Origin: an uncultured bacterium
GTDB taxonomy: Bacteria > Fidelibacterota > Marinisomatia > Marinisomatales > UBA1611
Direction: 5' to 3'
Assembly: GCA_964586315.1 (NCBI GenBank)
Contig: CAZPHE010000001.1
Location: 29,125-93,124 of the forward strand
Length of the DNA stretch: 64,000 nt
The translations under genes and the position numbers were made by a program. The notes beneath the pieces are model-generated. The model saw only the letters and a list, made by a program, of their open reading frames with translations, did not search any database and was not told where the DNA came from. Positions 9,384-28,049 of this stretch are shown piece after piece. Positions within the stretch are counted from its first letter, which is position 1. The number at the start of each line of letters is the position of its first letter.

Positions 9384-9427
9384 ATTATATAGTGAATTCT
9401 CAGTGACAATAGATTCAGGAGGCAATT

Positions 9428-10249
9428 ATGAAAGTCATTGATCCAAAAAGTGTAATTATTGGTGCGTTGGCCACTCTATTAATTTTTATTTTTTTAGGAT
9501 TAAGACCAAAAACTGATGAACTAGGTCATTTGGTTGTCCGTAGTTTAACTATAGAAGATGATCGTGGTGTTATAATGGGTTATCTTGGCAATGGGTATAT
9601 GCAAACATATAATCAATATGGTGAACCCACATTATTTATTGGCACTGGTAAAGATGGTGGTGGCTACATGAGAGCATATAATGGAAATGGTGATGAATCA
9701 GCATATGTGGGTACAGGGCGAATGGGAGGAGGATATATTAGAACATATAATAATTCTCAAAAAGAAACTTCATATCTTGGCACTGGTTCAGATCATGCCG
9801 GGCAGCTTAGAATTTATAATAAAGATGGTGCAACTTCTTCTTATCTAGGTGAAGGATACTACCAAGCATACAATCAATTTGGTGAAAGAACTCTCTTTTT
9901 AGGAACTGGTATTAGTGGAGGTGGTTATTTAAGAACTTATAATTTTGATGGCCAAGAAACAGTATATCTGGGAACCGGTGCTGACAGCTCAGGTCAATTG
10001 CGTGTATATGATTTTGCAGGAGAAACAGGAACATTTTTAGGTAGCGGTTATTTTAGAACTTATAATCAGTTTGGAAAAATGACAACCTATCTTGGGAATG
10101 GAAGAGATGGAGGTGGTTATTTAAGAACAAATAATAAGTTTGAAACTGAAACTGCTTTTCTTGGTACAAACAATTCAAATGAAGGCCTAATAAATCTTAA
10201 TGACAAATTTGGTCAAAGTTTTTGGATACGTCTAAATAAGGGTGATTGA
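9428..10249 (+). CDS. membrane-anchored Gly/Tyr/Asn-rich repeat protein, unknown family
   Basis: GGAGG Shine-Dalgarno motif 6 nt upstream. N-terminal TM (VIIGALATLLIFIFLGL). About ten degenerate repeats of 20-24 aa of the form GGGY[LMI]R[TA]YN..G.E..YLGTG. Confidence 0.5.
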   Translation: MKVIDPKSVIIGALATLLIFIFLGLRPKTDELGHLVVRSLTIEDDRGVIMGYLGNGYMQTYNQYGEPTLFIGTGKDGGGYMRAYNGNGDESAYVGTGRMGGGYIRTYNNSQKETSYLGTGSDHAGQLRIYNKDGATSSYLGEGYYQAYNQFGERTLFLGTGISGGGYLRTYNFDGQETVYLGTGADSSGQLRVYDFAGETGTFLGSGYFRTYNQFGKMTTYLGNGRDGGGYLRTNNKFETETAFLGTNNSNEGLINLNDKFGQSFWIRLNKGD

Positions 10250-10384
10250 TTTTTTATACAATTTTTTGACTTTAAGCTCTTAATTTATTAACTTTTAGAA
10301 CAAAAGGTATCCGAGAGGGGGATGAAACATGGCTTCATCCGTTAAACCTCATATTTTTCATACTCAGATAAGAAGGACTTGACC

Positions 10385-13300: not shown

Positions 13301-13417
13301 AGAACCAGAAAAGAAATGCAAGGTGCATATAAAAATGGTAAAATGGTTGACAAATGGTTTTTTTATGATAAAAATGGAAACTTAAAAGAGATTAGATATT
13401 TCTCTCCAGATTTTTAG
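10385..13417 (+). CDS. giant MORN/YwqK-type repeat protein
   Basis: About 1010 aa made of dozens of Y.NG...G.WT.WYENG.K..E units typical of MORN-variant (YwqK-like) repeats. Signal-like N-terminus. ATG at 10385, and the track TTG is at 10379. Confidence 0.7.
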   Translation: MRKILVIPTSLLWVLFAQNDGLVKTYYPSKALKTEGNYTNGVRDGLWTFWYEGELFQDYGADRLPETNDPGEGNGIWDIDTAAGTSELVLIDFDGDSIYDPPNKKMEGSYSEGNKEGLWTIWYLNAMRKEESNYTAGRLDGAIIKWFENGTKSEDGIYHAGKQNGNWIWYYETGIKKEQTSFLDGQQEGLWTQWFPDGTKKSERNFTNGERDNIWTSWYENGNKKFQATYSNGKLNGSWTSWYDGGIVKEKTGEYFNNKKDKKWTFWEENGRKAEEVSFDKGIKNGPYTFWNTDNIKIITGSYLDGKKHGIWILQYDNGTIKTEESYSNGKMDGAWKWYRSDGLKFREGNYKNGLKHGLWTSWNNADHKKSEETYVNGILDGLVVIWHENGNKDREGIIRGNELEGNWTYYNGDGTTDFKFDYGTGLDRVRIVELEERDGIFLKVGKNKPYTGIVVESGGIKDYLLLGRFQSGRRDGQWVQWYRNGEKEVEGVYYKGKKNGEWTLWYEDGTLKEQGQFDLDEIDGIYKYWYPNGHLQMEQTYQKGKPNGRWTWWFEHDHNLSFTDGKWSYNGVTYVAENNDELWNWWWYLNDNKEMEGYYMDGRKNGIWTWWYDTGVKQSEGNYIENEQDGLWSYFAPDGSIDEEINFSGGKRDGRSTLWLTPEEKQEEKFYRNGKLDGPSTYWENGHRSTMTTYKNDSPGGPWVIWYPNSDQIKEQGFHQDGIKEGLTTYYYENGTMQREGFFKEGLPDGIWTYWNAKGEKDFDFDFGTGLEHIDLEDLVERESLFFKINEDTPFTGIITQENKDADYLFLGKTNNGKKDGNWVKWFPSGKDVPEIIIVDVPTPEPVLPWSGGKQEQGAYKNGAKHGLWTEWYDNEHIKSHGNYNSGIMSGHWTFYYKNGIKEKEGILKDGNADGLWVFYDDESNKSQEGSFTNGTKEGQWTAWFEDGRMTEGFYSNGKKDATWTSWWDHNRTRKEMQGAYKNGKMVDKWFFYDKNGNLKEIRYFSPDF

Positions 13418-16163: not shown

Positions 16164-16889
16164 TTATTTTACCTTTTCGAAATAATCTCTATAGCTAAAT
16201 ATTTTTGGATTCATTGATAATATCCTATTTAGATCGTTTCCTAAACCCAATTCTAAATCATTTGGATGTATAGAAACCCGTAATGGCGTATTTTTTATTT
16301 TGGAATAAATCCTATTCATTTTATTTAATCCTTTCACTGCTATTATTCTAATTAAGTTATCAGCTTCATAACCCACCAAGGGTAAAGTATGGAATTCCCC
16401 ATTATGATAAACACCTGAAAGGGTTTCATATAATTTATATGGTAACACAGATAAGTCTTCCCAAGTAACGTTACCAAGGGCCCAAGCAGGCGGGATATAA
16501 ACATAGGGTGCGTTCAGATCATTCTCGTCAAACCATTTTGCACATTTAAACATCAATTGTATAATTTCTTTTGATGATAAGCTCAAGTGTTCTGCTACAT
16601 TTCTAGACATTATTAAACTATGAAAATAATGATATGCATTCTTTTTAGAACGAGCTCTATGATTCCATCCGTGCCCGGCTAAATCAAAACCACAATTCTG
16701 AAGATAATGCAATTGTTCTATTTGTTTTTTATTCCAGGAACGACCAGGGACTATAAGACAAGTTGCTGAAACAATTTTTTTATTAGCCAACAAATCTATT
16801 AATTTGATAACATCATCAAGAGTATCTGGCATAATATCATGAATGGATAGAATAATTGAATGATTTGACTTATTCATTACTAAGCGCAC
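16164..16889 (-). CDS. polysaccharide-deacetylase-like protein (DUF2334-type)
   Basis: IILSIHDIMPDTL...LIVPGRSWN...GFDLAGHGWNH resembles the predicted-deacetylase fold with a metal-binding Asp/His pattern. It overlaps the upstream GT gene stop. Confidence 0.5.
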   Translation of the reverse strand: MRLVMNKSNHSIILSIHDIMPDTLDDVIKLIDLLANKKIVSATCLIVPGRSWNKKQIEQLHYLQNCGFDLAGHGWNHRARSKKNAYHYFHSLIMSRNVAEHLSLSSKEIIQLMFKCAKWFDENDLNAPYVYIPPAWALGNVTWEDLSVLPYKLYETLSGVYHNGEFHTLPLVGYEADNLIRIIAVKGLNKMNRIYSKIKNTPLRVSIHPNDLELGLGNDLNRILSMNPKIFSYRDYFEKVK

Positions 16890-17997
16890 TTTGAAAAGTT
16901 TTTTTAGAAAGTTCTTTTAATATATCTATCCAAGTTGCAATGTTTTCTTTATTAAGTGTATGGGCTGAAAAATATGCTTTTTTGACTATAGTGTCACGTT
17001 CTTTTTCAGACATATTCATTACAAAGTCTATAGATTCTGATAGAGAATCAAAATCATCCATATTAATTAAATTTTTTGCTAAAAGGGGCCATTTGTTTAT
17101 GCCAGATTGACCCGACACTATAACGATACGTCCACGAGCCATGCCTTCGAAAGCTGCTGTTCCAAATGTTTCTATGAATGAAGGTAATACGAATATTTGA
17201 CTCTGATCGATTACATCAATTAATTCACTTCTAGAGAGCCATCCAAGATAGGAAATATTGTTCAACTGATAAGTATAATCAATTATTGTTGATTTCAGTG
17301 GCCCTTCACCAGCAAAAATAAATTCTACATTCTTATGATCTTTAGCAGCATTTATAATTTTATCAACACCCTTCTCTGGAGCTAATCGCCCTGCAAATAA
17401 TATTTTATTTATTTTTTTATTTATAGGAGATAAAGGACGATCAGAGAATATTTTAGCAAGAGGTGTTCCAATAATTTCCACTTTTTTACTGCCCAATTTT
17501 TTAGCTATGTTTTCCATATCTTTATTTACAATTAAAGATATAGGTGAAGATTTAAAAAAGAATTTATTTACAAAGGTTCCAATATTATTCACTAGGTAAG
17601 CTTTCACACCTTTCCAATACAATTTTGCCATTTCGTCATAATCATTATGCAATACTGGACAAATTGAAATATTTAATTTTTTAGCTTTTCCTAATGCTAC
17701 TAAACCATAAAATCCCGGAGTAGGAAAAATAATTACATCAGGAGATTTTTCTTTAATTATATTGGCCAACTTAAACATTTTTGGAAAATATAAACGCTGG
17801 GTAGCATCTCCAGGCATAGATATGGAAAAAAAGGTATATGAATCGTCTAAACGCTTTGGTCCAATAATTTCGATATGGCTTATATAATCTTTTAAATGCT
17901 CACATAAGTCTCGATAAAAACTTCCTACTCCATTGCGCTCTGAAAGGACATCTAAAATTATTAGAACGTTTAATTTGATTTTTTTGGTTTTTATCAT
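16870..17997 (-). CDS. glycosyltransferase, GT4 family (GT-B fold)
   Basis: N-terminal NGVGSFYRDL, and a C-terminal Glycos_transf_1 pattern ...FAGRLAPEKGV...FAGEGP...LPSFIETFGTAAFEGMARG (E-x7-E region). Confidence 0.8.
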   Translation of the reverse strand: MIKTKKIKLNVLIILDVLSERNGVGSFYRDLCEHLKDYISHIEIIGPKRLDDSYTFFSISMPGDATQRLYFPKMFKLANIIKEKSPDVIIFPTPGFYGLVALGKAKKLNISICPVLHNDYDEMAKLYWKGVKAYLVNNIGTFVNKFFFKSSPISLIVNKDMENIAKKLGSKKVEIIGTPLAKIFSDRPLSPINKKINKILFAGRLAPEKGVDKIINAAKDHKNVEFIFAGEGPLKSTIIDYTYQLNNISYLGWLSRSELIDVIDQSQIFVLPSFIETFGTAAFEGMARGRIVIVSGQSGINKWPLLAKNLINMDDFDSLSESIDFVMNMSEKERDTIVKKAYFSAHTLNKENIATWIDILKELSKKTFQSALSNE

Positions 17998-18027
17998 TTG
18001 TGGAATGATTTGTTAAAATATAAAATT

Positions 18028-19176
18028 TTATTTTTCTGAATCTAAAAATAAATAAATATTTTTTAATCGGTTCATTATATTCTGTGTTTTTAAATCGAAT
18101 TCATTTTTATTGTAACGATGTTTACTTTTGTATTTTCGTGAGTAAACAGCTGAATCATTAACGCTCTTTTCGTAATCTCTACTGGTCCTTAAAGAAAATT
18201 TATTATAAATCAATTTTATAGTATTTTCTAATTCATCTTGAATATCCGGCATAGAAAAAACAATCCAATGTGTTTTTTCTTTAGAAAAATGATATTTCGA
18301 AATACAATTATAATAATAATCCATCATATCAATTATTTTTTTTCTTGTATATTCAATACCTAAATCATTATTGAAAGATAACCAACCTTTTCTCATAACG
18401 CTTAATATTGATGGTACAGCTTTCTCAGGTTTTCTAATACAACAAACAAGATTCAAATCAGGGAACGTTTTTTTCAGATCATTTATCCAACCTGAGAAAG
18501 ACGCGTTTTTTGATAAATATCTTCGATTATATCCATAAACATACATATGTCTTTGGATTAATTTTTTATATATTATCATTATTTCTCTTCTTTTTACCAT
18601 ATTAAACTCTTGATCAAAAAATGCAAGATCCCAAATTTCTTTGTACGGAAAAGGGAAAATCAAAAGAAAACAAGCCATATAAGGCATTAAAAGGATAAAA
18701 TCTTCTTCTGGAGATTCTAAACCCGTTTTATGTGTCTCATGTAACATACTTAAAACACCTGACTCAATTGATTGAAATAATTTTTTTATAGGATATCCAA
18801 TTGCACGATCAATAAAAAAAAAATATTTTAAGATAATTTTTTGTGTAATTGCAGGTGCAAATATCATTTCTCCTAATGTACATGTAGTAAAGTTTGTTTT
18901 GTCTTGTGATAAAATTGAATGAAGAAAAGTTGTACCACTCCGAGGTACCCCAACAATAAAGAGCGGTTTGATTATGTTTATTTTTTTAAAAGATGGAAAA
19001 AATAAATTATCTAACAAAAGAAATAGACGATTAACTATTTGGAGTATTCCAAAAAAAAGAATAAAAATCATTATTTTCAAAGAACGAATTACAGAAAATT
19101 TCATTTGATTATTAACGAATGGATTAAAGATTCGAAAAAAATATTTTATTAATAGTTTAAGACCTATATAATTCAT
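18028..19176 (-). CDS. membrane-anchored sulfotransferase
   Basis: Hydrophobic N-terminal helix followed by the PAPS 5'-phosphosulfate-binding loop GVPRSGTTFLHSIL. The start is uncertain, either MNYIG at 19176 or an internal MKFSV. Confidence 0.7.
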   Translation of the reverse strand: MNYIGLKLLIKYFFRIFNPFVNNQMKFSVIRSLKIMIFILFFGILQIVNRLFLLLDNLFFPSFKKINIIKPLFIVGVPRSGTTFLHSILSQDKTNFTTCTLGEMIFAPAITQKIILKYFFFIDRAIGYPIKKLFQSIESGVLSMLHETHKTGLESPEEDFILLMPYMACFLLIFPFPYKEIWDLAFFDQEFNMVKRREIMIIYKKLIQRHMYVYGYNRRYLSKNASFSGWINDLKKTFPDLNLVCCIRKPEKAVPSILSVMRKGWLSFNNDLGIEYTRKKIIDMMDYYYNCISKYHFSKEKTHWIVFSMPDIQDELENTIKLIYNKFSLRTSRDYEKSVNDSAVYSRKYKSKHRYNKNEFDLKTQNIMNRLKNIYLFLDSEK

Positions 19177-19244: not shown

Positions 19245-19270
19245 AAAATGCCTCCACAAGGAGGCATTTT
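19245..19270 (-). terminator. rho-independent terminator hairpin closing the motor-like operon
   Basis: AAAATGCCTCC-acaa-GGAGGCATTTT forms a perfect 11-bp stem with a 4-nt loop and ends in a T run on both strands. It lies 27 nt downstream of the FliG-like stop. Confidence 0.75.
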
Positions 19271-19296
19271 AAATGAAAAAGTTTTTTAATAAAACG

Positions 19297-20232
19297 TTAT
19301 TCTACCATTTCCCCACCAGAAAGAATATCCTCTAAATTAAATTCACCATCCTTTTCCATTTTTTTTGCTGCATCAACAATTTTTTTCCGAGCATTATCTA
19401 CTTCTTTCTTTGAAACAGCACCTTCAACTGGTTCGTACATAGCTTGACGCTTTTGAGGTTGCCCTGCAATAATTTCATCTACAATTTCTTGGTCCAATCC
19501 TTTTACAGCATAAGCTAAATCTGTCAGATCAGTTTGAACAAACAATCCTCTCTTTAAATTCTCTGGAAATTTTTCTATAATATCATCAAAGGTAAGAAAA
19601 TACATTTTTACGCTAGCATAGAGTTCTGGATTTTCATTTTGGAGAGTCTGCATATATCTTTCTTGATCATTAGAATCCATACCACTAAGTGCATCAGCGA
19701 TGTCCTTTGCGCCTCCCCTTGAAAACTCTGTTGTACGAGGAAGATATGTGGACTTTTCTTTTAACCTCGCACCAACTTCTATTACTCCCTCTAATGGAAC
19801 ATCATCTAAAGATCCTAATTCTATTAGGACTTCTCCTTTTAATGCCGGGTCTAACTTATTAAGAACAAACATTTTTTTCTCTGGATCAAGTTGAGCCAAG
19901 GTCATAGCAATAACAGGAGTGTCTTCTTTGTCAACCAATGCAAATAATTGTTCGTCAGTTAATTCATTTAAAAACTCGAATGGTTGAATTGGTTTCCCAT
20001 TTTTATCATCACCACCAAATTCTTCACTCAAAAACCCAAAATAGAACTCTTCCATAACGCGTTTCTTTACAGAAAAAGATACAGAATCCATTCCACGTAA
20101 TGTTGAACGGATTTTTCTTACTTCAGTTTTTGATAGGCCTTTAATCAAAGACATTGCTAGGCCTTCTCCAACTACTGAGAAAAGCACTGCTACTTTTTGA
20201 AGACCTGAAAGCCTATTATAATCATTAATCAT
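19297..20232 (-). CDS. fliG: FliG-like rotor protein (three-domain FliG architecture, divergent)
   Basis: N domain LSGLQKVAVLFSVVGEGLAMSLIKGLSKTEVRKI. Middle domain FEFLNELTDEQLFALVDKEDTPVIAMTLAQLDPEK. Linker and C domain FSRGGAKDIADALSGMDSNDQERYMQTLQNENPELYASVKMYFLTFDDI...LAYAVKGLDQEI...GEF. These are colinear with canonical FliG blocks (GxxKAAILL..LGEE, EHPQ region, GG linker, DPELA..I...MFxFEDL, ALKGA). GAGGT Shine-Dalgarno motif upstream. Confidence 0.8.
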   Translation of the reverse strand: MINDYNRLSGLQKVAVLFSVVGEGLAMSLIKGLSKTEVRKIRSTLRGMDSVSFSVKKRVMEEFYFGFLSEEFGGDDKNGKPIQPFEFLNELTDEQLFALVDKEDTPVIAMTLAQLDPEKKMFVLNKLDPALKGEVLIELGSLDDVPLEGVIEVGARLKEKSTYLPRTTEFSRGGAKDIADALSGMDSNDQERYMQTLQNENPELYASVKMYFLTFDDIIEKFPENLKRGLFVQTDLTDLAYAVKGLDQEIVDEIIAGQPQKRQAMYEPVEGAVSKKEVDNARKKIVDAAKKMEKDGEFNLEDILSGGEMVE

Positions 20233-20250
20233 AATTCTTTACCTCGCCTT

Positions 20251-22038
20251 TTATTCATCGCCGCTTTCTTCTTCATCGCTATCACTAGCATCAGATTTTT
20301 CTTCTGAAGGAGTCGCAATCTCTGGGGCGGGTTGCTCTAGCCACTCTTTAACAATTGTAGACGTTTTCATCGGCTGTCCCACGCTCATTGAAACAATAGA
20401 TTTTCGAATATCATCAATTTCACTTTTTAAGACATTTGGATCTATATCTGGACTTGTACTATCTAATTCATTATTACCATTAGGTGATGCAGCTTGAGCT
20501 TCCATTGCTGCTATCTGCGCAGCAGTTGGTTCACCAGGAGATTTTTCATCGGTTAGTTTACTTTCCCCTTTTTTTTCTTCTTTTTTTTCAGTTTTTCTTT
20601 TTCTTTTCCTTCGTCTTGGTGGCGGATAAGGATATGGTGGCATCGGCGGTGGATACTGCTGTTGTGTATTTTTACCTTTTTGCAAGAATACCATGAGCAA
20701 CAAACCTACACTTACGACTCCTAAAGCTATTATCATTATCATCTTAGTATCAAAACCTTGGGTCGCTTCGGCTTCTAAAGCAGCAAGGTCTGCCTGAACT
20801 GCATCAAGTGCCGCTATTTTTTCAGCAATAATTGAGTCCCTAGAAGCTTTTTCTTTTTCACGTGATGTCAGTTCTTCCTGAATTTTTGCCTGTGCCTTCT
20901 GTTGAGCCTCAAGTGAATCTTGTAAAATTGCTTCTAACAACATTGTTCTTAAACTCTGCATTTCGTTATCAAGCATGGCAAACCGTGTTGAATCAAGTCT
21001 CTTCTCTTTGACTTCGTCTTCGGATTCATTCATAGACAGCATATCTTTTAAAGCTTGAATTTCTGCTTCTAGTTTTGAATTTCTAACAGAATCTTTTCTC
21101 GCTAATTCTTTCTTCTCATACTCTGCGGCTGCTTCTAATCGCGCTTTTTCTAAATTTGAAAGTTGCTCTTCAAAGCTTTCCAAATTTTCAATTCGTTGAG
21201 CATCAGCTTCTTTTTTATAATTAGCAATGTCATCTCTCCAATTACTTGATTCGTTTAATCTCTTTTGTTCCATCATGTCTATTTTTTCAGCTATGTTTTT
21301 TAACATTACTTGTTCAGCAGTGCGCTGATCGCGCCTTTCTTTAAAACTTGCTGTCATAATTGTTAATTTATCACCTCTTTCTCGATCAAATTTTGCAGCA
21401 GCCATTGTCAATTGACGAATATTTTCAATCAATTCTGGCGCTGCTCCTTCTTGGAGAATAAGAGACAACTCCATTCGCTTCACAACAGTTTTTGATGGGC
21501 GTTTTGTTGAAAGAACTTTATCAACAATTTCTTTTTGAACTTCGGACCCATCCCTATCTATATCAACGGTTGATTCAAGTGTCTTAGGTGAAATGGGCAT
21601 TGATTTTGTTAAAGGACCAGGGTCGCTGGATTTAGGTGTCGTCACATCAACTTCAAATCCAGGTATAGGCAATCCAATAGAATAACTGTTATTTTTATTC
21701 TGTTCGTTTTCATTAACCATTTTTTCTTGTATTTTAACCAATGCATCTGCTGTTTTTTCGGCTGGCGAAAGGGTATTATTTTGTTTTTTTTCTAATGCTC
21801 TTGGTGCATAATAAGTAAACTGTTCATTCACTTCATTTAGTACTTCTAATTCCACATCAACATTGATAACATATTTATGCGACTCAATAAGTTTTGATAA
21901 GGCATCTTTTATTCGCTCACGAATATTGTTTTCCACCATTAATTTTTGGGAAAGATACCCACCTCCCTGCGCAACAAGCAATGTGATTACCATCGCGGCA
22001 CTAATGATGGGTATTAAAAAATTTTTACCCTGTTTCAT
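20251..22038 (-). CDS. FliF-like two-TM ring protein with long periplasmic coiled coil and basic/Pro-rich cytoplasmic linker
   Basis: TM1 at aa ~7-23 and TM2 at aa ~433-452. FliF/YscJ-like ring-building blocks IRERIKDALSKLIESHKYVINVDVELEV and VKRMELSLILQEG..IENIRQLTMAAAKFDRERGDKLTIMTASF. About 195 aa of coiled coil. PPPMPPYPYPPPRRRKRKRK linker. C-terminal IVSMSVGQPMKTSTIVKEWL resembles the FliG-binding end of FliF. AAGGAG Shine-Dalgarno motif 6 nt before the ATG. Confidence 0.5.
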   Translation of the reverse strand: MKQGKNFLIPIISAAMVITLLVAQGGGYLSQKLMVENNIRERIKDALSKLIESHKYVINVDVELEVLNEVNEQFTYYAPRALEKKQNNTLSPAEKTADALVKIQEKMVNENEQNKNNSYSIGLPIPGFEVDVTTPKSSDPGPLTKSMPISPKTLESTVDIDRDGSEVQKEIVDKVLSTKRPSKTVVKRMELSLILQEGAAPELIENIRQLTMAAAKFDRERGDKLTIMTASFKERRDQRTAEQVMLKNIAEKIDMMEQKRLNESSNWRDDIANYKKEADAQRIENLESFEEQLSNLEKARLEAAAEYEKKELARKDSVRNSKLEAEIQALKDMLSMNESEDEVKEKRLDSTRFAMLDNEMQSLRTMLLEAILQDSLEAQQKAQAKIQEELTSREKEKASRDSIIAEKIAALDAVQADLAALEAEATQGFDTKMIMIIALGVVSVGLLLMVFLQKGKNTQQQYPPPMPPYPYPPPRRRKRKRKTEKKEEKKGESKLTDEKSPGEPTAAQIAAMEAQAASPNGNNELDSTSPDIDPNVLKSEIDDIRKSIVSMSVGQPMKTSTIVKEWLEQPAPEIATPSEEKSDASDSDEEESGDE

Positions 22039-22079
22039 TTGGAACTCCTTGGTATGTGTTTAAAACTCCGCATTTTAAA

Positions 22080-22961
22080 TTAACTTTCCTCCTCTTGGTA
22101 TGATGTCCCTGATCGCCCTTTACCATGATGTGGAGGATTAATAAAAGTAATTTGAATTCTTCTATTGCCCGATTTTTGTTTTTTTGTCTTATTAAGTTCC
22201 AAAACGGTAGGAATAGGATTGCCTTTTGAATCTGTAGATATGCCTTTATCACCCCAAGTTAAGGTTAGTGGATTATACATTGGGTTAACACTCTTTATAC
22301 TATCAATACCCCTTGGATACCAATCCCCATAACCTGCTGCTAGTAATCTTGGGGCCGGTACGCCTTTATCAATCATATATCGCACACACGTTGCACCTCT
22401 TGCAGCTGAAAGTTCCCAATTACTTTTGTAAAATTTTTGCCACTTTTTAGGCATAGGGTCACTGTCTGAATGCCCTGCTACTTCTACTTGAAATGGACTT
22501 GCCAAAATTCTAGGTATAATTTCTTCATCTAACAACTTTTTAAGTTCACCTTTCATATCTGCTTTACCTGAAGGAAAAGCAAAATCACCCTTTATATTTA
22601 CGATCAAACCTTTCGAACTAGTTTGAACAGCGGGATTTTCTTTTTTCATTTCTTCAATAGCTTCTTTCATCTCTTTTTTCATCTGAGCTAAATTTTCTAT
22701 CGGTTCAAACTCACCTTCTTCTTCAGCTTTTCCCTCAGCCTTAATTTTACTACCAAGTGATTTACCTTGAGAATTTGCCATCTCTTGAAGCTTAACAGGG
22801 TCCATTGTGGAGATTGCTGCTAATAGAACAAAAAAGGCGAAAAGTAGTGTCATCATATCAGCAAAAGTACCAAACCATCCTGGAAGACCCTCCTCAATAG
22901 AATTAGCGCCTTCTTCAAAACCCTTGTTAAAGGCTTTTTTTTCGCCAGGTGTCATCGCCAT
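22080..22961 (-). CDS. motB: MotB-type stator subunit with OmpA-like peptidoglycan-binding domain
   Basis: Single TM carrying the conserved channel Asp (WFGTFADMMTLLFAFFVLL). C-terminal OmpA-like motifs VEVAGHSDSDP, SNWELSAARGATCVRYM, AAGYGDWYP, NRRIQITF. It follows motA after 5 nt. Confidence 0.85.
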   Translation of the reverse strand: MAMTPGEKKAFNKGFEEGANSIEEGLPGWFGTFADMMTLLFAFFVLLAAISTMDPVKLQEMANSQGKSLGSKIKAEGKAEEEGEFEPIENLAQMKKEMKEAIEEMKKENPAVQTSSKGLIVNIKGDFAFPSGKADMKGELKKLLDEEIIPRILASPFQVEVAGHSDSDPMPKKWQKFYKSNWELSAARGATCVRYMIDKGVPAPRLLAAGYGDWYPRGIDSIKSVNPMYNPLTLTWGDKGISTDSKGNPIPTVLELNKTKKQKSGNRRIQITFINPPHHGKGRSGTSYQEEES

Positions 22962-22966
22962 TTAAT

Positions 22967-23752
22967 TTAATCCCGTTTCCATTCTGCTGGAGGTATAAAT
23001 GAGTTGAGTTTTTCTCTAACAATAATTGGATGTTTCTTTTGATGAATTAGGCGAGAAGCCTCTACAAGTAAATTAGCAGACATAGATGTCTGTGTAGTTT
23101 TATTTCCCATTTTTTGAGCCATGGGTAGAAAAAACAAATTTGCGAATACTGCACCATAAAGGGTTGTGATCAAAGCAGCGGCCATACCTCCTCCAAGATT
23201 ATCAGCTCCACCTTCACCACCAAAACCCGCTAACATAAGAACGAGACCAATCAAAGTCCCAACCATACCCCAAGCGGGCGATAAATCACCCATGGATTTT
23301 AACATATCTGTTTGAACCTTTTCACGCTTCTCTCTATATTCAATTCTTGTTTCTAAAATTTCTGTTACTTCCTCAAGAGAGTATCCATCAGCCACCATTT
23401 GGACGCCATCTCTGAAGAAAAAATTTTGAATCCCGCCGGCTGTATTTTCTAAATCTGTTGGCGCCTTCCTATATGCCTCCGCAGTATCCACTGCCATATC
23501 TACCAAAGGACCCATTTTATCATCTGCTGGTTTTAAAACAGCACCTATAGCCTTTCCTAAGGCCGCAACATGATACATTGGGAACGCTACCATAACAGAT
23601 GCAAGCATGCCCCCAAACACAATTCCAAAACTTGGAATCGAAATGAAGTTGCCAAATCCACCGGCTGCACCTTCAACAAATAAAGCGTAGGCAATACTAC
23701 CTACCATAAATGCCATTCCTAAAACAACACCAATAATTAGAGCAATATCCAT
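22967..23752 (-). CDS. motA: MotA-type stator subunit (4-TM MotA/PomA layout)
   Basis: 261 aa with two N-terminal TM helices, a ~100-aa charged cytoplasmic loop (DGYSLEEVTEILETRIEYREKRE), then TM3/TM4 with conserved Pro contexts (SPAWGMVGTLIGL and LFFLPMAQKM). The GAGGAG Shine-Dalgarno motif is formed by the last codons of the upstream gene. Confidence 0.85.
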   Translation of the reverse strand: MDIALIIGVVLGMAFMVGSIAYALFVEGAAGGFGNFISIPSFGIVFGGMLASVMVAFPMYHVAALGKAIGAVLKPADDKMGPLVDMAVDTAEAYRKAPTDLENTAGGIQNFFFRDGVQMVADGYSLEEVTEILETRIEYREKREKVQTDMLKSMGDLSPAWGMVGTLIGLVLMLAGFGGEGGADNLGGGMAAALITTLYGAVFANLFFLPMAQKMGNKTTQTSMSANLLVEASRLIHQKKHPIIVREKLNSFIPPAEWKRD

Positions 23753-23756
23753 AAGG

Positions 23757-25196
23757 TCACTCCTCGATCAAATTTGCAGATTGTAATTTATTTTCATTAA
23801 GAGCTTTAAGAATATTTCTTACATCAGTATACTCAGGATCCAAACGTAAAGCAAGATTCCAGTTTATTGTAGCTCTTTGCACATCACCTAATTTATAATA
23901 GATAGAACCTCTTCTGGCATAAGCTAATGCTAAATTAGGATTTAATTCTAAGGATAGATCAACTTCTTTCAAAGCTTCTCGATAATCACCGGCATAAAAA
24001 TACCTTAGTGAGCGGGAAAGATGTCTCATAGCCTCATTCATATTCTTTTCAGATACATTGGTTTCAAGCTTTAAAGAACTCAACGAATCAGATAGGAATC
24101 TACTATTCTGCTCCATAGCATTTAGACGCACTAAAAGATTGCGCATTTCATTATTCATTAATGCCATTGAATCCCTTAACGTCTCTACTGCTACATTAGC
24201 CATTACAATTGTAGAATCTCTATGCAAAGAAATTGTTTCTGGGTAGTCAGTTCCATCATCAGAAGGTCCATAAATATTTGTGGGGCTGGATGGGCCACTA
24301 CGTATTCTACGTAAAGGATCTCTTGGTACCATCATAGTCAAACCCAACGAAAGACCAGGGTGCCCTGCCCAATATCGATTTTTCCATCCTGGAAGTTGAT
24401 CTAAGTGGGTGAACCCTAAGTTCAGGCGGTAATCCGAGGTAAGGGGGATGCGGAGTCCCACATTGACACCTGTCCCATCGAATTCACCCACAATATCCAT
24501 TCCACCCCATTGTCCAAAAAATGGGGTTTTCAATAAAAAACCAACAAATACTCCAGAGCTTGTTTCAGTATTTGATCTTAATGAATCTGAAACAAATCGT
24601 GCTGTATCAGGATGCGCAAGACCGCCACCTATCTCTGGAACTAATGCAGGAGGAGCTAATCCTCCTGTTCCGAAACCCATAAAAGTATTCATTTTATATT
24701 CGCCTAAATCTTTTTCACTGCCAAGCACAGTAAAGAAAGATAAAAGAGAAGTATTCAGACTGAGTATCTGATCTGAGGTCTGTTCACTCTCGAACACAAC
24801 ATCTTGTAAGCCGACCGATAGAGAAATATCATTATAAGTGTAAACTCGTTGTTGAAAATGAAACCCGAACTCAACGGGTGGGTTATATGTAGAGTTTTCC
24901 AATGAATAACCACTTTGCCATGGGTTTATACGTGTTGTATCGCCAGGTATAACAGCAGAAAAACCAAAACTAAAACCCCTGCTTATTTCCATATCAAAAA
25001 AAAGACCCCCTGCAGTATTAAAAGGATTAAGATTATGAATCTCAGTCCCAAATCCAGTACGAAATAAATAGGGTGATACTGTATTACTTGATGTTGGGAT
25101 GCGCATCATCATTCCAGGTCTAGAATATGCAACGCGCGTACCTGATAATGCGGTAGACGTAATGAAAAAAACAGTTATTAGAAATTTAATTTTCAT
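23757..25196 (-). CDS. secreted envelope protein: Gly/aromatic-rich beta-type N-domain, coiled coil, C-terminal TPR
   Basis: Signal peptide (MKIKFLITVFFITSTALSG). About 300 aa of alternating Gly/aromatic sequence (GFSFGFSAV, GFHFQQRVY, GVNVGLRIPL, LNLGFTHL). Coiled segment (LRDSMALMNNEMRNLLVRLNAMEQ). TPR-like YYAGDYREALKEVDLSLELNPNLALAYARRGSIYYKLGDVQRATINWNLALRLDPEY. Confidence 0.5.
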   Translation of the reverse strand: MKIKFLITVFFITSTALSGTRVAYSRPGMMMRIPTSSNTVSPYLFRTGFGTEIHNLNPFNTAGGLFFDMEISRGFSFGFSAVIPGDTTRINPWQSGYSLENSTYNPPVEFGFHFQQRVYTYNDISLSVGLQDVVFESEQTSDQILSLNTSLLSFFTVLGSEKDLGEYKMNTFMGFGTGGLAPPALVPEIGGGLAHPDTARFVSDSLRSNTETSSGVFVGFLLKTPFFGQWGGMDIVGEFDGTGVNVGLRIPLTSDYRLNLGFTHLDQLPGWKNRYWAGHPGLSLGLTMMVPRDPLRRIRSGPSSPTNIYGPSDDGTDYPETISLHRDSTIVMANVAVETLRDSMALMNNEMRNLLVRLNAMEQNSRFLSDSLSSLKLETNVSEKNMNEAMRHLSRSLRYFYAGDYREALKEVDLSLELNPNLALAYARRGSIYYKLGDVQRATINWNLALRLDPEYTDVRNILKALNENKLQSANLIEE

Positions 25197-25225
25197 GAAA
25201 TATTTAAATTAACCATAAAATTAAC

Positions 25226-26413
25226 TTACTGATATTCTTCCCAATCAATGACATAAGAATAACCAATAAACGTACCAAAGTCTTGGGGAACATAAAGATC
25301 AAATTTCCCATTAGCGCCAGGAAGCAAACTGGCATCAGAAACAATTCCTGTGTCAAATGTATTGTATGAACCTTTAACAAAAGTTGTTAAAGTTCTGGTT
25401 TCCCCACTCCAGTTTTTTCGAAAAACAAAATCTACTTTTACAAAGTCAGCTCTACGACCACCAATATTTTTAATTTCTCCATCAAAAATTATATTCCCTT
25501 GACTGTCTTTTTTCTCCGCTATATTTCCAACCAATACACAATTAGCAGATAGTTTAGCGCTGGCGAGCCTTGCAGAATTATTTGATGATGTATATCTCGG
25601 TTGCGCTAACTTAGGCATTGGCGGAGGAGTATAGCTCTCACGAATCTGTTCAGGAACATATTCCTGAGTATCTTCAGTTATGACATTATCAACAATCCGA
25701 ACAACCTGTGTCCGATCAACGATTAAATAGCCCACTAAGGTTTCTACTTTAAGTGATTTGTCATCTTGATAAATAATTTTACCAAAAACAGTACTGCCAT
25801 TTTTCAAAATAATTTCTTTGGAATAAATAGTAAGCGGGTTTACCCACATTTTACTTAAAGCTTTTAGATCATCTAGATCTTGCGTTAAATGTTTTAGTTC
25901 AGCGTTAAGTTTTTTTATTTCAAAATTTAGTTCATTTATAATAAAATCTTTACTCGGGGCACCCATTGCCTCCATCGTTTGAGGTACTGATATTGATACA
26001 TTTTTAGGTTGCTTGTCTTGATTAGGTTTAGATTCCTCATCTCCAATTTGTTGATCAGAAACAATTGCGCTAGGGTTTTCAGTTGATAACACAAGATCAC
26101 CTAAATCTTTATCATCAGTTAAAGTTATAATTTGTTCTATTGAACCTAAATCATCATGGGTCACCTTCAACATATATTCACCTTCTTCAAGTTTTTTAAA
26201 CTCAAAGGTTCCCTTCCGTCCTGTTTTTTCATCTGCAACTTCATCAGTTCCAGAAAGAAGAGTAACCGTGGCCTTCTTAACTTTCTCTCCATCTGAATCA
26301 ATAATTCTACCTGATAATTTAATTTTCCCTTTCGCAAATATGAGACTTCCCATAAGCGTAAAGGCAATAGTAGCGAATATATATCGCTTCTGCATGCTTT
26401 TTGATAGTGTCAT
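25226..26413 (-). CDS. secreted protein with carboxypeptidase-regulatory-like (CarboxypepD_reg) domain, coiled coil and C-terminal beta-sandwich-like domain
   Basis: Signal peptide. LSGRIIDSDGEKVKKATVTLLSGTDEVADEKTGRKGTFEFKKLEEGEYMLKV is a typical CarboxypepD_reg block. Short coiled coil (FEIKKLNAELKHLTQDLDDLKAL). GAGGT Shine-Dalgarno motif 5 nt upstream of the ATG. Confidence 0.5.
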   Translation of the reverse strand: MTLSKSMQKRYIFATIAFTLMGSLIFAKGKIKLSGRIIDSDGEKVKKATVTLLSGTDEVADEKTGRKGTFEFKKLEEGEYMLKVTHDDLGSIEQIITLTDDKDLGDLVLSTENPSAIVSDQQIGDEESKPNQDKQPKNVSISVPQTMEAMGAPSKDFIINELNFEIKKLNAELKHLTQDLDDLKALSKMWVNPLTIYSKEIILKNGSTVFGKIIYQDDKSLKVETLVGYLIVDRTQVVRIVDNVITEDTQEYVPEQIRESYTPPPMPKLAQPRYTSSNNSARLASAKLSANCVLVGNIAEKKDSQGNIIFDGEIKNIGGRRADFVKVDFVFRKNWSGETRTLTTFVKGSYNTFDTGIVSDASLLPGANGKFDLYVPQDFGTFIGYSYVIDWEEYQ

Positions 26414-26467
26414 GTTTTACCTCGGATTATGAACACTTTTAGCAACTAAATGCGCTAAAGCTAAAAG

Positions 26468-26496
26468 ATTTTAATGCAAATTGGGCAATGTGTCAA
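26468..26496 (-). promoter_or_regulatory. sigma70-like promoter for the six-gene motor-like operon
   Basis: On the minus strand: TTGACA (26496-26491), a 17-nt spacer, then TAAAAT (26473-26468). It lies 54 nt upstream of the 395-aa gene ATG, in the 129-nt gap after the TPR gene. Chance matches are possible in AT-rich DNA. Confidence 0.4.
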
Positions 26497-26542: not shown

Positions 26543-27127
26543 TCATTTCCAAAATTCTTTCAATTGTTTTTCTCTTTTCATAATTAGAGAATATTCTGCT
26601 TCAGTGGCCTTTCTTAAATGGCTGGGCAGAACTAACTCCAGCGCCATTTCGTACGATTCACTAATAAGATCAAAATCGGTATCACCTATTTTTTGATAGC
26701 ACTGACCTATATAATAATGTGGCTCTCCTAATTGAGGTTGTAGTTGAGATGCTTTATAATATTTCAGTATTGCTTCCCACAAACCATCTTTATTACCCTT
26801 ATCAAGTAACGCATGACCTTGAGCAATAAAAAGATTATATAGAGACAATGTGTCTTCTCCACATAGCTCTACCGCGCGCGAAAAATGGCCTATGGCTTTT
26901 TTATAATCATGATCGTTCAGTGCAAATTTCCCAATTGTATTGTGTGATGTTATCAATGCATTTTTAATTTTTTTCGTGGGGTTGTTATTTAATAATGAAT
27001 CTTCCATTATTATCAGAGCATCTGGATTTTCTTCCGCAATAATTTGGTATTTTACATTGGAGCATCTCCAATTACTTATCATAATAATTGATAAAAAACT
27101 AAACCAAAATATTACATTATCCTTCAT
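26543..27127 (-). CDS. TPR repeat protein with N-terminal hydrophobic segment
   Basis: TPR-like helices (YKKAIGHFSRAVELCGEDTLSLYNLFIAQGHALL; WEAILKYYKASQLQPQLGEPHYYIGQCYQKIGD). I prefer the start MKDNVIFWFSFLSIIMI at 27127, which overlaps the upstream stop by 11 nt. The track start is 27184. Confidence 0.55.
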   Translation of the reverse strand: MKDNVIFWFSFLSIIMISNWRCSNVKYQIIAEENPDALIIMEDSLLNNNPTKKIKNALITSHNTIGKFALNDHDYKKAIGHFSRAVELCGEDTLSLYNLFIAQGHALLDKGNKDGLWEAILKYYKASQLQPQLGEPHYYIGQCYQKIGDTDFDLISESYEMALELVLPSHLRKATEAEYSLIMKREKQLKEFWK

Positions 27128-28049
27128 ACCAAAACAGATCCTCACGATCTTTAAAAGATTGATACAGGAGATCCATTGATTCAATCACATAATAACGATC
27201 TTGTATATCGCTATAATCAAAACAGGTCATTACGATTTCTTCGATATCAAAATTTTTAAATTTAGATCGATGTGATAATCCCTTTGCGCAATTGATAACA
27301 TTATTTACTTCATCGTATGAAGAAATAATACCGGCACCATATATTTCATAATCTATATCATTAGCTACTCTTCGTAATTGATCTGCTGTGCTGTTGTTTT
27401 TAAGCAATCCATATTCATATGTCCACCATGCAAAATTTTGTAATCGTTTTAAATTATGCGATACGAGATCTTTTCCCAATCCTCGATCATCTTTAAGAAT
27501 TTTATTTCCTAAAACACCAATTTCCCACATGAATTGCGCATAATCTTTATTCATTAAAAAGGGTACATGCGCTTGAACATCATGAAAAATATCTGGCTCA
27601 GGCGTATATCCTGAATCGTTTTGGATGTCTACATCCGAATATTTTTCTGCAAACCTTGGTGATTTCCTAATTATATCCGTTACAGGAAATTGCCGCTTTG
27701 TGTTGATTTCAAAAAATAACTCCTCATCTAAAAAGCCCGCCACAGGTAACAAAGTCCAACCTGTTGAATTTTCTATTAACGGTGAAATAGCTTCAAATTC
27801 CGGGAACATATTATTGGGGATCGGTAAGGTGCGCAAACCCATTAAATACTCTTTTGATGCATATTGATCTAAATAAAACTCCAGTTTTTGGAATAGCTCT
27901 GCCCAGATTTTATTTTCTAAATTGGTGATCTCATCATATCTCTGCCTTTTAATATATGAGTCATTTATTCCAAATATTTTAATCCCATCTATACTATTAG
28001 GTATTATATTCTTAAAAAGGTGATTGTATTTTGTCGATTTAGAAACCAT
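27117..28049 (-). CDS. phhA: aromatic amino acid hydroxylase family protein (phenylalanine-4-hydroxylase-like)
   Basis: Iron-ligand motif EPDIFHDVQAHVPFL (H-x4-H). WWTYEYGLL matches the YWFTVEFGL Glu-ligand block. IYGAGIISSYDE and the TGW..LPVAGF substrate-region pattern are present. Confidence 0.8.
   Translation of the reverse strand: MVSKSTKYNHLFKNIIPNSIDGIKIFGINDSYIKRQRYDEITNLENKIWAELFQKLEFYLDQYASKEYLMGLRTLPIPNNMFPEFEAISPLIENSTGWTLLPVAGFLDEELFFEINTKRQFPVTDIIRKSPRFAEKYSDVDIQNDSGYTPEPDIFHDVQAHVPFLMNKDYAQFMWEIGVLGNKILKDDRGLGKDLVSHNLKRLQNFAWWTYEYGLLKNNSTADQLRRVANDIDYEIYGAGIISSYDEVNNVINCAKGLSHRSKFKNFDIEEIVMTCFDYSDIQDRYYVIESMDLLYQSFKDREDLFWYEG

What the first reader, a model, noticed from the sequence alone, without database searches (positions are those of the whole stretch)
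19245..26496. Self-contained rotor-plus-stator operon (2 secreted proteins, MotA, MotB, FliF-like, FliG-like) with no other flagellar genes in 64 kb
Seen: six co-directional minus-strand CDS are packed with gaps of 29, 4, 5, 41 and 18 nt. They are preceded by TTGACA-17 nt-TAAAAT and closed by a perfect 11-bp hairpin immediately after the FliG-like gene. The products, in order, are: a secreted CarboxypepD_reg-like protein; a secreted beta-rich/coiled-coil/TPR protein; a 4-TM MotA; a MotB with the channel Asp and an OmpA-like domain; a two-TM FliF-like protein; and a three-domain FliG-like protein. Established: in flagellar loci fliF-fliG is normally flanked by fliE and fliH/I/J, and FliG works with FliM/FliN and the type III export gate. 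None of those genes is in this window, nor are flhA/B, fliPQR or rod/hook/filament genes. Both flanks are metabolic (a sulfotransferase cluster and a PhhA-like hydroxylase). Inference: this may be a stripped-down ion-driven rotary module, with an MS-ring-like rotor, a MotAB stator and envelope partners. It might drive something other than a flagellum. This would parallel the way GldLM, ExbBD, TolQR and ZorAB reuse MotAB-type motors, but here a FliF/FliG rotor would be retained.
Basis: partly seen in the sequence, partly recalled or inferred. Interest (0 to 1): 0.9.

Follow-up and report, generated by a model that had tools for sequence, protein, structure and literature searches.

The report
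Flagellum-less rotor-stator motor cassette in SAR406
An abundant group of ocean bacteria (SAR406/Marinimicrobia), whose one cultured member is non-motile, keeps the rotor and ion-driven stator of the flagellar motor in one conserved operon with new envelope proteins, apparently as a rotary machine for a purpose still unknown.

Summary
Six tightly packed minus-strand genes (19297-26413) lie between a near-consensus promoter and an 11-bp hairpin. They encode a secreted transthyretin-like protein and a secreted beta-rich/coiled-coil/TPR protein. They also encode a flagellar-type MotA and MotB, a truncated FliF and a three-domain FliG.

The FliF-like protein keeps only the RBM3 ring domain and the FliG-docking tail, and gains a roughly 190-residue helical hairpin. 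The FliG-like protein has lost the EHPQR FliM-binding motif. MotA keeps the rotor-contact Arg/Glu pair and all three threonines of the PomA sodium site.

The window comes from a marine SAR406 (Marinimicrobia) contig. The cassette is colinear in all 80 species genomes examined, out of 154 that matched, and is under strong purifying selection. About 84 kb around it holds no other flagellar gene. In a published table, 10 Marinisomatota MAGs show fliG in 6, and fliM, fliN and che genes in none. The only cultured member of the phylum is non-motile.

Best reading: a flagellum-derived, probably sodium-driven rotary module without export apparatus, rod or switch. What it drives is unknown. Genome-wide absence of other flagellar genes is supported only indirectly. 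No publication describing it was found.

The parts
26468..26496 (-). Promoter-like site TTGACA-17 nt-TAAAAT upstream of the first cassette gene
   Evidence: 11 of 12 matches, the best in the region. This is a consensus match only, and the promoter type used by this phylum is unknown.
25226..26413 (-). P1: secreted 395-aa protein. It has a signal peptide, a variable N-terminal transthyretin-like (CarboxypepD_reg) domain, a coiled coil, and a highly conserved C-terminal two-thirds of unknown fold.
   Evidence: PF13620, E 5e-11; residues 160-395 are nearly invariant across 36 orthologues; no PDB sequence match beyond the N-terminal Ig-like domain; colinear in 60 of the 60 complete loci.
23757..25196 (-). 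P2: secreted 479-aa protein. It has an N-terminal beta-rich domain of about 300 aa and unknown fold, one long helix (327-375) and a C-terminal TPR domain (383-478).
   Evidence: TPR only; no family or PDB match for the beta-rich domain; 57-80% identity over the phylum, with an almost invariant TPR. AlphaFold model, beta-rich domain pLDDT below 50, TPR 76-88.
22967..23752 (-). MotA/PomA-type stator A subunit (261 aa, 4 TM)
   Evidence: PF01618, 90 bits; best NCBIfam hits are MotP (167 bits) and PomA (149 bits), against TolQ at 14 and ZorA at 16; full-length alignment to C. sporogenes MotA and V. alginolyticus PomA; the Arg/Glu of the cytoplasmic loop, both channel prolines and the three PomA-site threonines are conserved in at least 90% of 75 sequences.
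22080..22961 (-). MotB/PomB-type stator B subunit (293 aa) with the TM Asp, plug helix and OmpA-like peptidoglycan-binding domain
   Evidence: MotB_plug 55.6 bits, OmpA 35.4 bits; aligns to C. sporogenes MotB and PomB; the FADMMTLL Asp is conserved in at least 90% of 75 sequences.
20251..22038 (-). Truncated FliF-like rotor protein (595 aa). In order: N-terminal signal peptide or TM; an RBM3-type ring-building domain (about 30-76 plus 173-230) split by a variable insert carrying an invariant PIPGF motif; a helical hairpin (238-338 and 350-426); a TM (431-457); a Pro/Lys-rich linker; and C-terminal FliG-docking helices (534-568, with W566 invariant).
19297..20232 (-). FliG-like rotor protein (311 aa) with N, M and C domains. 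The Gly-Gly linker is kept. The EHPQR motif is degenerate (EDTP...E). The torque helix is charged but three residues shorter.
19245..19270 (-). Intrinsic-terminator-like hairpin: 11-bp perfect stem, TTGT loop, T-rich tail
   Evidence: read directly from the sequence.
26543..27184 (-). Small TPR protein (194-213 aa) just upstream. It is a possible accessory component and lies outside the promoter-to-terminator unit.
   Evidence: TPR hits; upstream of the cassette in 52 of 60 complete loci, at 25-48% identity.

Best explanation
The locus is a flagellum-derived rotor-plus-stator module that is a fixed core feature of the SAR406/Marinimicrobia phylum (Marinisomatota, Fidelibacterota). It works without a flagellum.

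Stator. MotA5B2-type units are anchored to peptidoglycan by the OmpA-like domain of MotB. They conduct ions past the conserved MotB Asp. The ion is most likely sodium, because all three threonines of the PomA sodium site are kept.

Torque. The conserved Arg/Glu pair of the MotA cytoplasmic loop pushes on the charged helix of the FliG-like C domain.

Rotor. FliG-like sits on the conserved C-terminal tail of the FliF-like protein, and the RBM3 domain of that protein builds a ring. The FliF-like/FliG-like ring turns in the inner membrane. It carries a crown of roughly 15-nm helical hairpins into the periplasm.

Direction. Rotation is probably one-way and unregulated by chemotaxis, because the FliM-binding motif and, on the available data, fliM, fliN and che genes are missing.

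Envelope partners. By analogy with TPR scaffolds of high-torque flagellar motors, P2, the small TPR proteins and possibly P1 form the periplasmic and outer-envelope scaffold that positions the stators, or they are the load.

Shown here: homology, domain loss, conservation of the torque-interface residues, synteny and purifying selection. Inferred: ring formation, rotation, ion type, roles of P1 and P2. Unknown: what the rotation is used for.
For: Homology of the four motor proteins.

Torque-generating residues conserved in at least 90% of 75 species sequences:
- MotB Asp in FADMMTLL.
- MotA RKG..dLE, aligned to the Arg/Glu of the ARREGLLSLE loop of C. sporogenes MotA. I equate these with E. 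coli Arg90 and Glu98, which PMC7564593 (abstract) names as the FliG contacts; the numbering equivalence is from my own knowledge.
- Both MotA channel prolines.
- A charged FliG_C helix, consensus LPqKKQAMyepvega..KReVD.

FliF-FliG docking is retained: an invariant Trp sits in IVKxWL, which aligns weakly with Vibrio FliF VVKNWM.

Sodium coupling: the equivalents of PomA T158, T185 and T186 are all Thr. [quoted passage not shown] Na+-NQR is ancestral in the phylum (PMC6143742).

Loss of flagellum-specific parts:
- No PF01514 (RBM1-2) in any of 26 family members.
- EHPQ is EDTP and the motif Arg is Glu.
- No other flagellar family across the window and 5-7 kb on each side, nor around two relatives.

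Phylum-wide fixation:
- 154 GTDB species genomes matched.
- Among the best 80, 60 are complete and colinear, 20 are cut by contig ends, and none is rearranged.
- dN/dS is about 0.02-0.14 in all six genes.

Independent data:
- 10 Marinisomatota MAGs in PMC10359470 Supplementary Dataset 3 show fliG in 6, and fliM, fliNY and cheA/B/R in none.
- Fidelibacter multiformis, the only isolate of the phylum, is non-motile (PMC11652737).
Against: - I could not scan a whole Marinimicrobia genome for flhA, flhB, fliI, fliPQR or the flg genes. Absence rests on flanking regions, on 10 incomplete MAGs (53-85% complete) screened by others for only three motor genes, and on silence in phylum-level genomics papers.
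- I do not know whether F. multiformis carries the cassette.
- No direct evidence shows ring assembly or rotation.
- The torque helix of FliG-like is three residues shorter than in T. maritima. Its charges do not map one-to-one onto the canonical charged residues.
- The fold of the P2 beta-rich domain is unresolved, so no output path can be drawn.
- Some stators with undetermined ion type, such as C. sporogenes MotA, also carry the three threonines. The sodium assignment is therefore only probable.
Confidence: 0.6

Rival explanations
1. The parts are reused without rotation. The FliF-like/FliG-like assembly is a static inner-membrane platform. The MotAB unit then acts like TolQR or ExbBD, an ion-driven 5:2 motor that pulls or remodels an envelope partner (P1, P2 or the TPR proteins) to maintain the outer membrane or to assist division or transport.
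For: The cassette is a core gene set, present even in streamlined genomes, and sits among housekeeping genes: gyrA, SSB, DivIVA and LptD next to the distant version. Partners include YfiO/BamD-like TPR proteins and an OmpA-like anchor. No axial or surface filament genes were found.
Against: MotA keeps the specific Arg/Glu pair that contacts FliG, and FliG-like keeps a conserved charged C-terminal helix and the FliF-docking domain. These are features of torque transfer onto a ring. RBM3 is a ring-building module. The same genome has a separate ExbB-ExbD-ExbD-TonB set.
Confidence: 0.2
2. This is an ordinary, dispersed flagellar operon. The organism builds a normal flagellum from genes elsewhere, and this locus supplies fliF, fliG and motAB.
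For: All four motor proteins have their closest database and PDB relatives among flagellar proteins. The rest of the genome was not inspected.
Against: - FliF-like lacks RBM1 and RBM2. These belong to the MS-ring that houses the export gate (PMC11739650 abstract). None of 26 members has them.
- The beta-collar region is replaced by a variable disordered insert.
- EHPQR is lost.
- fliM and fliNY are absent from 10 of 10 Marinisomatota MAGs.
- The only isolate of the phylum is non-motile.
- Marinimicrobia genome papers do not mention flagella.
Confidence: 0.07
3. This is a decaying relic of an ancestral flagellum with no present function.
For: The domain losses in FliF and the motif loss in FliG look like degeneration.
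Against: All six ORFs are intact and colinear in every one of the 80 species loci. dN/dS is about 0.02-0.14. P2 and MotA stay 55-91% identical across a phylum-level radiation. Four of the six genes are separated by fewer than 30 nt.
Confidence: 0.03
4. This is an anti-phage or other accessory MotAB-based system of the Zorya type.
For: MotB gives generic ZorB hits of 27-48 bits.
Against: ZorA scores only 14 bits. No ZorC, ZorD or ZorE-like gene and no nuclease or helicase is present. The locus is fixed in position and conserved phylum-wide rather than patchy. MotA lacks the long ZorA tail.
Confidence: 0.02

Closest known systems
Core of the bacterial flagellar motor: FliF MS-ring, FliG, and the MotAB or PomAB stator
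   Same: - Homologous proteins in the same functional set.
- FliG with N, M and C domains and the Gly-Gly linker.
- FliF RBM3 and the C-terminal FliG-binding helices.
- MotA Arg/Glu rotor contacts and channel prolines.
- MotB Asp, plug helix and peptidoglycan-binding domain.
- The PomA-type threonine triad.
   Different: - No RBM1 or RBM2 in FliF.
- The beta-collar is replaced by a variable insert with a PIPGF motif.
- A helical hairpin of about 190 residues is added before the TM.
- The FliG EHPQR motif is lost.
- No FliM or FliN, no export gate or ATPase, and no rod, hook or filament genes in about 84 kb.
- The motor genes are co-operonic with two or three new secreted or TPR proteins.
Periplasmic stator scaffolds of high-torque flagellar motors: Campylobacter PflA/PflB, Vibrio MotX/MotY T-ring, spirochaete collar protein FlcA (from my own knowledge)
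   Same: TPR or Sel1-type periplasmic proteins encoded with, or acting on, MotB/PomB. P2, the small TPR protein and, in other clades, a roughly 300-aa YfiO-like TPR protein accompany the stator genes here.
   Different: No sequence similarity beyond the TPR repeat itself. The beta-rich domain of P2 and the conserved core of P1 match no known family. A scaffold role is an analogy and was not tested.
GldLM/PorLM, the motor of type IX secretion and gliding in the same FCB superphylum
   Same: An ion-driven MotAB-family motor in a non-flagellated lineage that transmits energy across the periplasm. The host has type IX secretion cargo proteins.
   Different: In GldLM the periplasmic shaft is part of the B subunit, and there is no separate rotor ring. 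Here the stator is a true MotAB with plug and OmpA domain, and a FliF/FliG rotor is retained. No GldL or GldM family was hit.
ZorAB (Zorya), ExbBD-TonB, TolQR-Pal and AglRQS
   Same: All are 5:2 MotA/ExbB-family ion-driven units put to non-flagellar uses.
   Different: None of them keeps FliG or FliF. NCBIfam scores for TolQ (14 bits) and ZorA (16 bits) compare with MotP and PomA at 149-167 bits.
SpoIIIAG and injectisome SctJ/SctD ring-building-motif proteins
   Same: Ring-building motifs. SpoIIIAG also has an insert within the motif (from my own knowledge).
   Different: Every significant structural match is to FliF RBM3 and none to SctJ or SpoIIIAG. A FliG partner and a FliG-docking tail are present.

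Membership tests
Bacterial flagellar motor / flagellum | FliG with N, M and C domains | tested here: met
   PF14842 48.7 bits, PF14841 43.2 bits and PF01706 66.1 bits, all above their cutoffs. T. maritima FliG at E 1.4e-20, and Aquifex full-length FliG aligned over residues 4-300. It falls below the TIGR00207 equivalog cutoff (107 against 226.7 bits).
Bacterial flagellar motor / flagellum | FliG EHPQR motif (FliM-binding surface of FliG_M) | tested here: not met
   EHPQ aligns with EDTP, and the motif Arg aligns with Glu; only the first Glu is conserved among 77 sequences.
Bacterial flagellar motor / flagellum | FliF with RBM1, RBM2 and RBM3 plus the beta-collar | tested here: not met
   Only RBM3 is present. 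PF08345 hits 25 of 26 members and PF01514 hits none. In the model the collar region (77-172) is mostly low-confidence, with one predicted helix (92-116), and it is variable in the alignment.
Bacterial flagellar motor / flagellum | FliF C-terminal FliG-binding helices | tested here: inconclusive
   A conserved SMSVGQPxxASxIVKxWL motif with invariant W566. It aligns weakly to Vibrio FliF PELAAQVVKNWM. Two helices are predicted at 534-568. No complex model was run.
Bacterial flagellar motor / flagellum | MotA/MotB stator: TM Asp, plug, peptidoglycan-binding domain, MotA Arg/Glu and channel prolines | tested here: met
   conserved in at least 90% of 75 sequences.
Bacterial flagellar motor / flagellum | Type III export gate and ATPase, FliM/FliN, and rod, hook and filament genes in the genome | tested here: inconclusive
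   None across nearly all of the window and 5-7 kb on each side, nor around L007 and L092. fliM and fliNY are absent from 10 of 10 Marinisomatota MAGs in a published table. Whole genomes could not be scanned with these tools.
Sodium-driven stator (PomAB/MotPS type) | Thr at PomA positions 158, 185 and 186 | tested here: met
   aligned to V. alginolyticus PomA. WGMvGTLIGL and AALITT.YGA are conserved. The criterion comes from PMC10374538. Ion use itself was not tested.
Zorya (ZorAB plus ZorC/D/E) | ZorA with a long cytoplasmic tail, plus effector genes | tested here: not met
   ZorA 14 bits, only generic MotB-type ZorB hits, and no other Zorya protein.
TolQR / ExbBD | TolQ or ExbB with a TolR or ExbD partner that lacks an OmpA domain | tested here: not met
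   TolQ 14 bits. ExbD 13 bits, below its cutoff. The B subunit has MotB_plug plus OmpA. A separate ExbB-ExbD-ExbD-TonB cluster lies just outside the window.
GldLM/PorLM (type IX secretion motor) | GldL and GldM families | tested here: not met
   No GldL or GldM family among the Pfam hits at E up to 1.

The most novel reading that the evidence does not exclude
SAR406 bacteria, among the most abundant cells of the dark ocean, run a previously unrecognised class of rotary nanomachine. It is a rod-less and export-less FliF(RBM3)/FliG ring driven by sodium-type MotAB. Its periplasmic coiled-coil crown and new partners P1 and P2 deliver torque to a non-flagellar process in the outer envelope. This would show that the flagellar rotor-stator pair can exist and be selected as a free-standing module.
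Probability: 0.5. Interest if true: 0.9.

Novelty: new variant of a known kind. Interest (0 to 1): 0.8.

Why it matters
- Rotor-plus-stator without export apparatus or axial structure has, to my knowledge, not been described. Known non-flagellar relatives (Tol, Ton, Gld/Por, Agl, Zorya) keep only the stator. A free-standing FliF/FliG/MotAB module bears on the modular origin and exaptation of the flagellum.
- It offers a minimal natural system for studying torque generation without a switch complex.
- It occurs in a globally abundant, almost uncultured phylum. It is one of that phylum's most conserved gene clusters, yet three of its six proteins have no known family, or none beyond a TPR or Ig-like domain. 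NCBI records call the FliF-like and P2 homologues 'hypothetical protein'.
- Practically, marine trait surveys that use fliG, motA or motB as markers of flagellar motility would mis-score SAR406.

Tried and rejected
- Rfam scan of the window: no matches.
- The search for related loci with the 26-sequence alignment A1 failed because no stretch was conserved enough. It was repeated with the closer set A2.
- A MotB start extended to 22979 was wrong, because it contains a stop codon. The public contig differs from the window by an 18-nt indel in MotB, giving 299 aa against 293 aa.
The run with close homologues only gave pLDDT 51, so the fold of the beta-rich domain is unresolved and no fold search was attempted on it.
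- The AFDB fold library was unavailable.
- PADLOC excluded a Zorya-type system.
- Pfam scans of 38 P2 orthologues, and PDB profile searches with the P1 and P2 alignments, gave only TPR and Ig-like hits.
- Ten literature searches found no paper describing the cassette. Two Marinimicrobia genomics papers and the Fidelibacter description never mention flagella. This covers open-access papers and bioRxiv only.
- I considered and rejected sporulation-type or injectisome-type RBM proteins, because every significant fold match is to FliF.
- The third large homologue search and the metagenome scan were not used. They could not link flagellar genes to these genomes.


Full report
**1. What is in the sequence**

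One search shows six minus-strand ORFs at 25226-26413, 23757-25196, 22967-23752, 22080-22961, 20251-22038 and 19297-20232. The gaps between them are 29, 4, 5, 41 and 18 nt. The best sigma-70-like site of the region, TTGACA-17-TAAAAT at 26496-26468, precedes the first gene. A perfect 11-bp stem with a TTGT loop and a T-rich tail (19270-19245) follows the last gene.

**2. Identity of the proteins**

The Pfam hits are:
- P1: CarboxypepD_reg.
- P2: TPR only.
- Third protein: MotA_ExbB, 90 bits.
- Fourth protein: MotB_plug plus OmpA.
- Fifth protein: YscJ_FliF_C, 28 bits, above its cutoff.
- Sixth protein: FliG_N, FliG_M and FliG_C, all above their cutoffs.

NCBIfam places the stator with the flagellar families: MotP at 167 bits and PomA at 149 bits, against TolQ at 14 and ZorA at 16. 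All scores fall below the equivalog cutoffs, so the proteins are divergent members.

MotA aligns end to end with C. sporogenes MotA and V. alginolyticus PomA. MotB aligns with MotB and PomB, including the TM Asp, the plug and the peptidoglycan-binding domain. FliG-like aligns with T. maritima FliG (E 1.4e-20) and with full-length Aquifex FliG.

**3. The FliF-like protein**

phmmer against 1.84 billion representative proteins finds only 192 relatives. The family is therefore closed, and ordinary FliF lies beyond single-sequence reach. Three other tests establish the homology:
- 25 of 26 diverse members hit PF08345, and none hits PF01514, the RBM1-2 family.
- A family profile ranks FliF RBM3 first among PDB sequences (E 7e-5 to 2e-3). 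That alignment also weakly pairs the family's C-terminal GQP..AS.IVK.WL with Vibrio FliF PELAAQVVKNWM.
- The AlphaFold model has a ring-domain core with pLDDT above 90. Its 18 best Foldseek matches are all FliF MS-ring or RBM3-collar structures (E 1e-7 to 2e-5, TM-score about 0.6 on the target).

The architecture, in order, is:
- A hydrophobic N-terminus followed by a nearly invariant [G/A/S]-Q. This may be a cleaved signal peptide.
- A split RBM3 (about 30-76 and 173-230).
- A variable, mostly low-confidence insert (77-172, with one predicted helix) carrying an invariant PIPGF motif, where FliF has its beta-collar.
- Two long helices (238-338 and 350-426), which I read as a hairpin of about 15 nm.
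- A TM segment (431-457).
- A Pro/Lys-rich linker.
- Two conserved C-terminal helices with an invariant Trp.

RBM1 and RBM2 are absent. In flagella they form the inner part of the MS-ring, which houses the export gate.

**4. Residues that matter for torque**

Across 75-77 orthologues the following are conserved in at least 90% of sequences:
- The MotB Asp in FADMMTLL.
- The MotA loop RKG..dLE. Its Arg and Glu align with the ARREGLLSLE loop of C. sporogenes MotA. I take them to be the equivalents of E. coli Arg90 and Glu98, which contact FliG (PMC7564593 abstract); the numbering equivalence is from my own knowledge.
- Both MotA channel prolines.

The FliG-like C domain keeps a conserved charged helix (consensus LPqKKQAMyepvega..KReVD). 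It is three residues shorter than in T. maritima, so the charges do not map one-to-one. The Gly-Gly linker is kept.

The EHPQR motif of FliG_M is not kept. EHPQ reads EDTP, the Arg is Glu, and only the first Glu is conserved in the phylum.

The three threonines of the PomA sodium site are all present and conserved. [quoted passage not shown] Na+-NQR is ancestral in the phylum (PMC6143742). A sodium-driven stator is therefore likely.

**5. Whose genome, and how widespread**

The exact proteins lie on a 378-kb marine metagenome scaffold and on other marine contigs. Type IX secretion sorting domains in the window point to the FCB superphylum.

A scan of one genome per GTDB species found 154 genomes with a relative. 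The best 80 were fetched. Those whose record title gives a taxon are Candidatus Marinimicrobia/Neomarinimicrobiota, Fidelibacterota or 'FCB group', that is SAR406; the remaining titles are only 'uncultured bacterium' or 'bacterium'. Of those 80 loci:
- 60 hold all six genes in the same order.
- 20 are cut by contig ends.
- None is rearranged.
- 39 of the 60 complete loci carry an extra gene of about 0.9 kb between P1 and P2. In the two loci where I scanned it, it encodes a roughly 300-aa TPR (TPR_6/YfiO-like) protein.
- A small TPR protein lies upstream in 52 of the 60.

A distant version with 24% FliF identity has an unknown 326-aa gene, two TPR genes, a P2-like gene, MotA, MotB, FliF-like and FliG-like. 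It sits between housekeeping genes.

dN/dS against close relatives is about 0.02-0.14 for all six genes. P2 is 57-80% identical across the phylum, with an almost invariant TPR. The C-terminal two-thirds of P1 are likewise nearly invariant. The NCBI records retrieved call the FliF-like and P2 homologues 'hypothetical protein'.

**6. Is there a flagellum elsewhere?**

I could not scan whole genomes. The indirect evidence is as follows:
- No flagellar family occurs across nearly all of the window (about 1 kb at 30.2-31.3 kb falls between the look-ups) plus 5-7 kb on each side, nor around two relatives.
- The protein features argue against a normal basal body: no RBM1 or RBM2, no collar, no EHPQR.
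- Supplementary Dataset 3 of PMC10359470 scored MAGs for fliG, fliM, fliNY and che genes. In the 10 Marinisomatota rows I could read (53-85% complete), fliG is present in 6, and fliM, fliNY and cheA/B/R in none.
- Fidelibacter multiformis, the only cultured member of the phylum, is non-motile (PMC11652737).
- Two phylum-wide genomics papers never mention flagella or motility.

**7. Mechanism proposed**

Peptidoglycan-anchored, probably sodium-driven MotA5B2 units turn a FliG-like ring. That ring is docked on the tails of a FliF-like RBM3 ring. With no FliM, FliN or CheY input, rotation would be one-way. The ring carries a crown of helical hairpins into the periplasm.

P2, the small TPR proteins and P1 are either a stator scaffold or the driven load.

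The invariant PIPGF peptide in a disordered loop and the invariant P2 TPR are an obvious candidate pair, but this is untested. The P2 beta-rich domain has 12-14 predicted strands in which short turns alternate with long loops. That pattern is compatible with an outer-membrane barrel, but the model is unreliable.

**8. Rivals**

- A non-rotary, Tol-like use of the parts: 0.2.
- An ordinary dispersed flagellar operon: 0.07.
- A decaying relic: 0.03, contradicted by selection and synteny.
- A Zorya-like defence system: 0.02, contradicted.

**9. Novelty**

Ten full-text searches and several targeted reads found no description of this cassette. The library covers open-access papers and bioRxiv only.

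Relative to known systems, this is a new variant of the flagellar-motor kind. The rotor and stator are retained, while export, axial and switch parts are gone and new envelope partners are added.

Interest is high because known non-flagellar MotAB relatives keep only the stator. It is also high because the host phylum is globally abundant.

The main open risk is the untested genome-wide absence of other flagellar genes.

Noticed in passing
window 16164-19176 (-): A three-gene islet (Sulfotransfer_3, GT4 glycosyltransferase, DUF2334) with GC down to 0.28 sits between the FliG-like terminator and PPDK. It is present only in this lineage and, at about 55% identity, in L011. It is absent from the other related genomes examined (for example L007 and L012-L036). 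It looks like a strain-variable glycan-modification insertion.
   Followed up: partly
window 39541-41223 (-) and 41294-42730 (+): Two proteins carry the Por_Secre_tail type IX secretion sorting domain. One is an M23 peptidase. Both have weak 'FlgD_ig' Ig-domain hits that are not flagellar. The host therefore has a type IX secretion system.
   Followed up: no
L010 13374-15429 (about 3.4-5.4 kb beyond window position 1): An ExbB-ExbD-ExbD-TonB cluster. It is a second, separate MotA/ExbB-family motor in the same genome.
   Followed up: no
window 22080-22961 compared with L001 7254-8153: MotB is 293 aa in the window but 299 aa on the public scaffold that otherwise carries identical proteins. The difference is an 18-nt indel inside the gene.
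   Followed up: partly
window 21967-22038 (FliF-like residues 1-24): The N-terminal hydrophobic stretch ends in a nearly invariant [G/A/S]-Gln (Q24). This resembles a signal-peptidase I site with Gln at +1, a pattern known from Bacteroidetes (my own knowledge). The protein may be anchored by one TM rather than two.
   Followed up: partly
L011-L090, between the P1 and P2 orthologues (for example L076 6138-7040 and L049 6038-6931): 39 of 60 complete loci have an extra gene of about 0.9 kb between P1 and P2. In the two loci scanned it encodes a roughly 300-aa TPR_6/YfiO-like protein. The window's clade has lost it. The ancestral cassette therefore probably had seven or eight genes.
   Followed up: partly
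window 25694-25831 (P1 residues 195-240): A small beta-rich domain in P1 gives sub-threshold hits to several Leptospira-specific NCBIfam families (Lepto_7_Nterm at E 1e-6, LA_3334, LIC_13076, PTPDL). This suggests a shared, uncharacterised envelope domain.
   Followed up: no
window 8307-13417 (+): Three consecutive proteins (358, 273 and 1012 aa) have no Pfam hit at all. They are conserved next to PPDK in close relatives such as L007.
   Followed up: no
PMC10359470 Supplementary Dataset 3: Marinisomatota MAGs score fliG-positive but fliM- and fliN-negative. Surveys that use fliG, motA or motB alone as motility markers would mis-score SAR406.
   Followed up: partly
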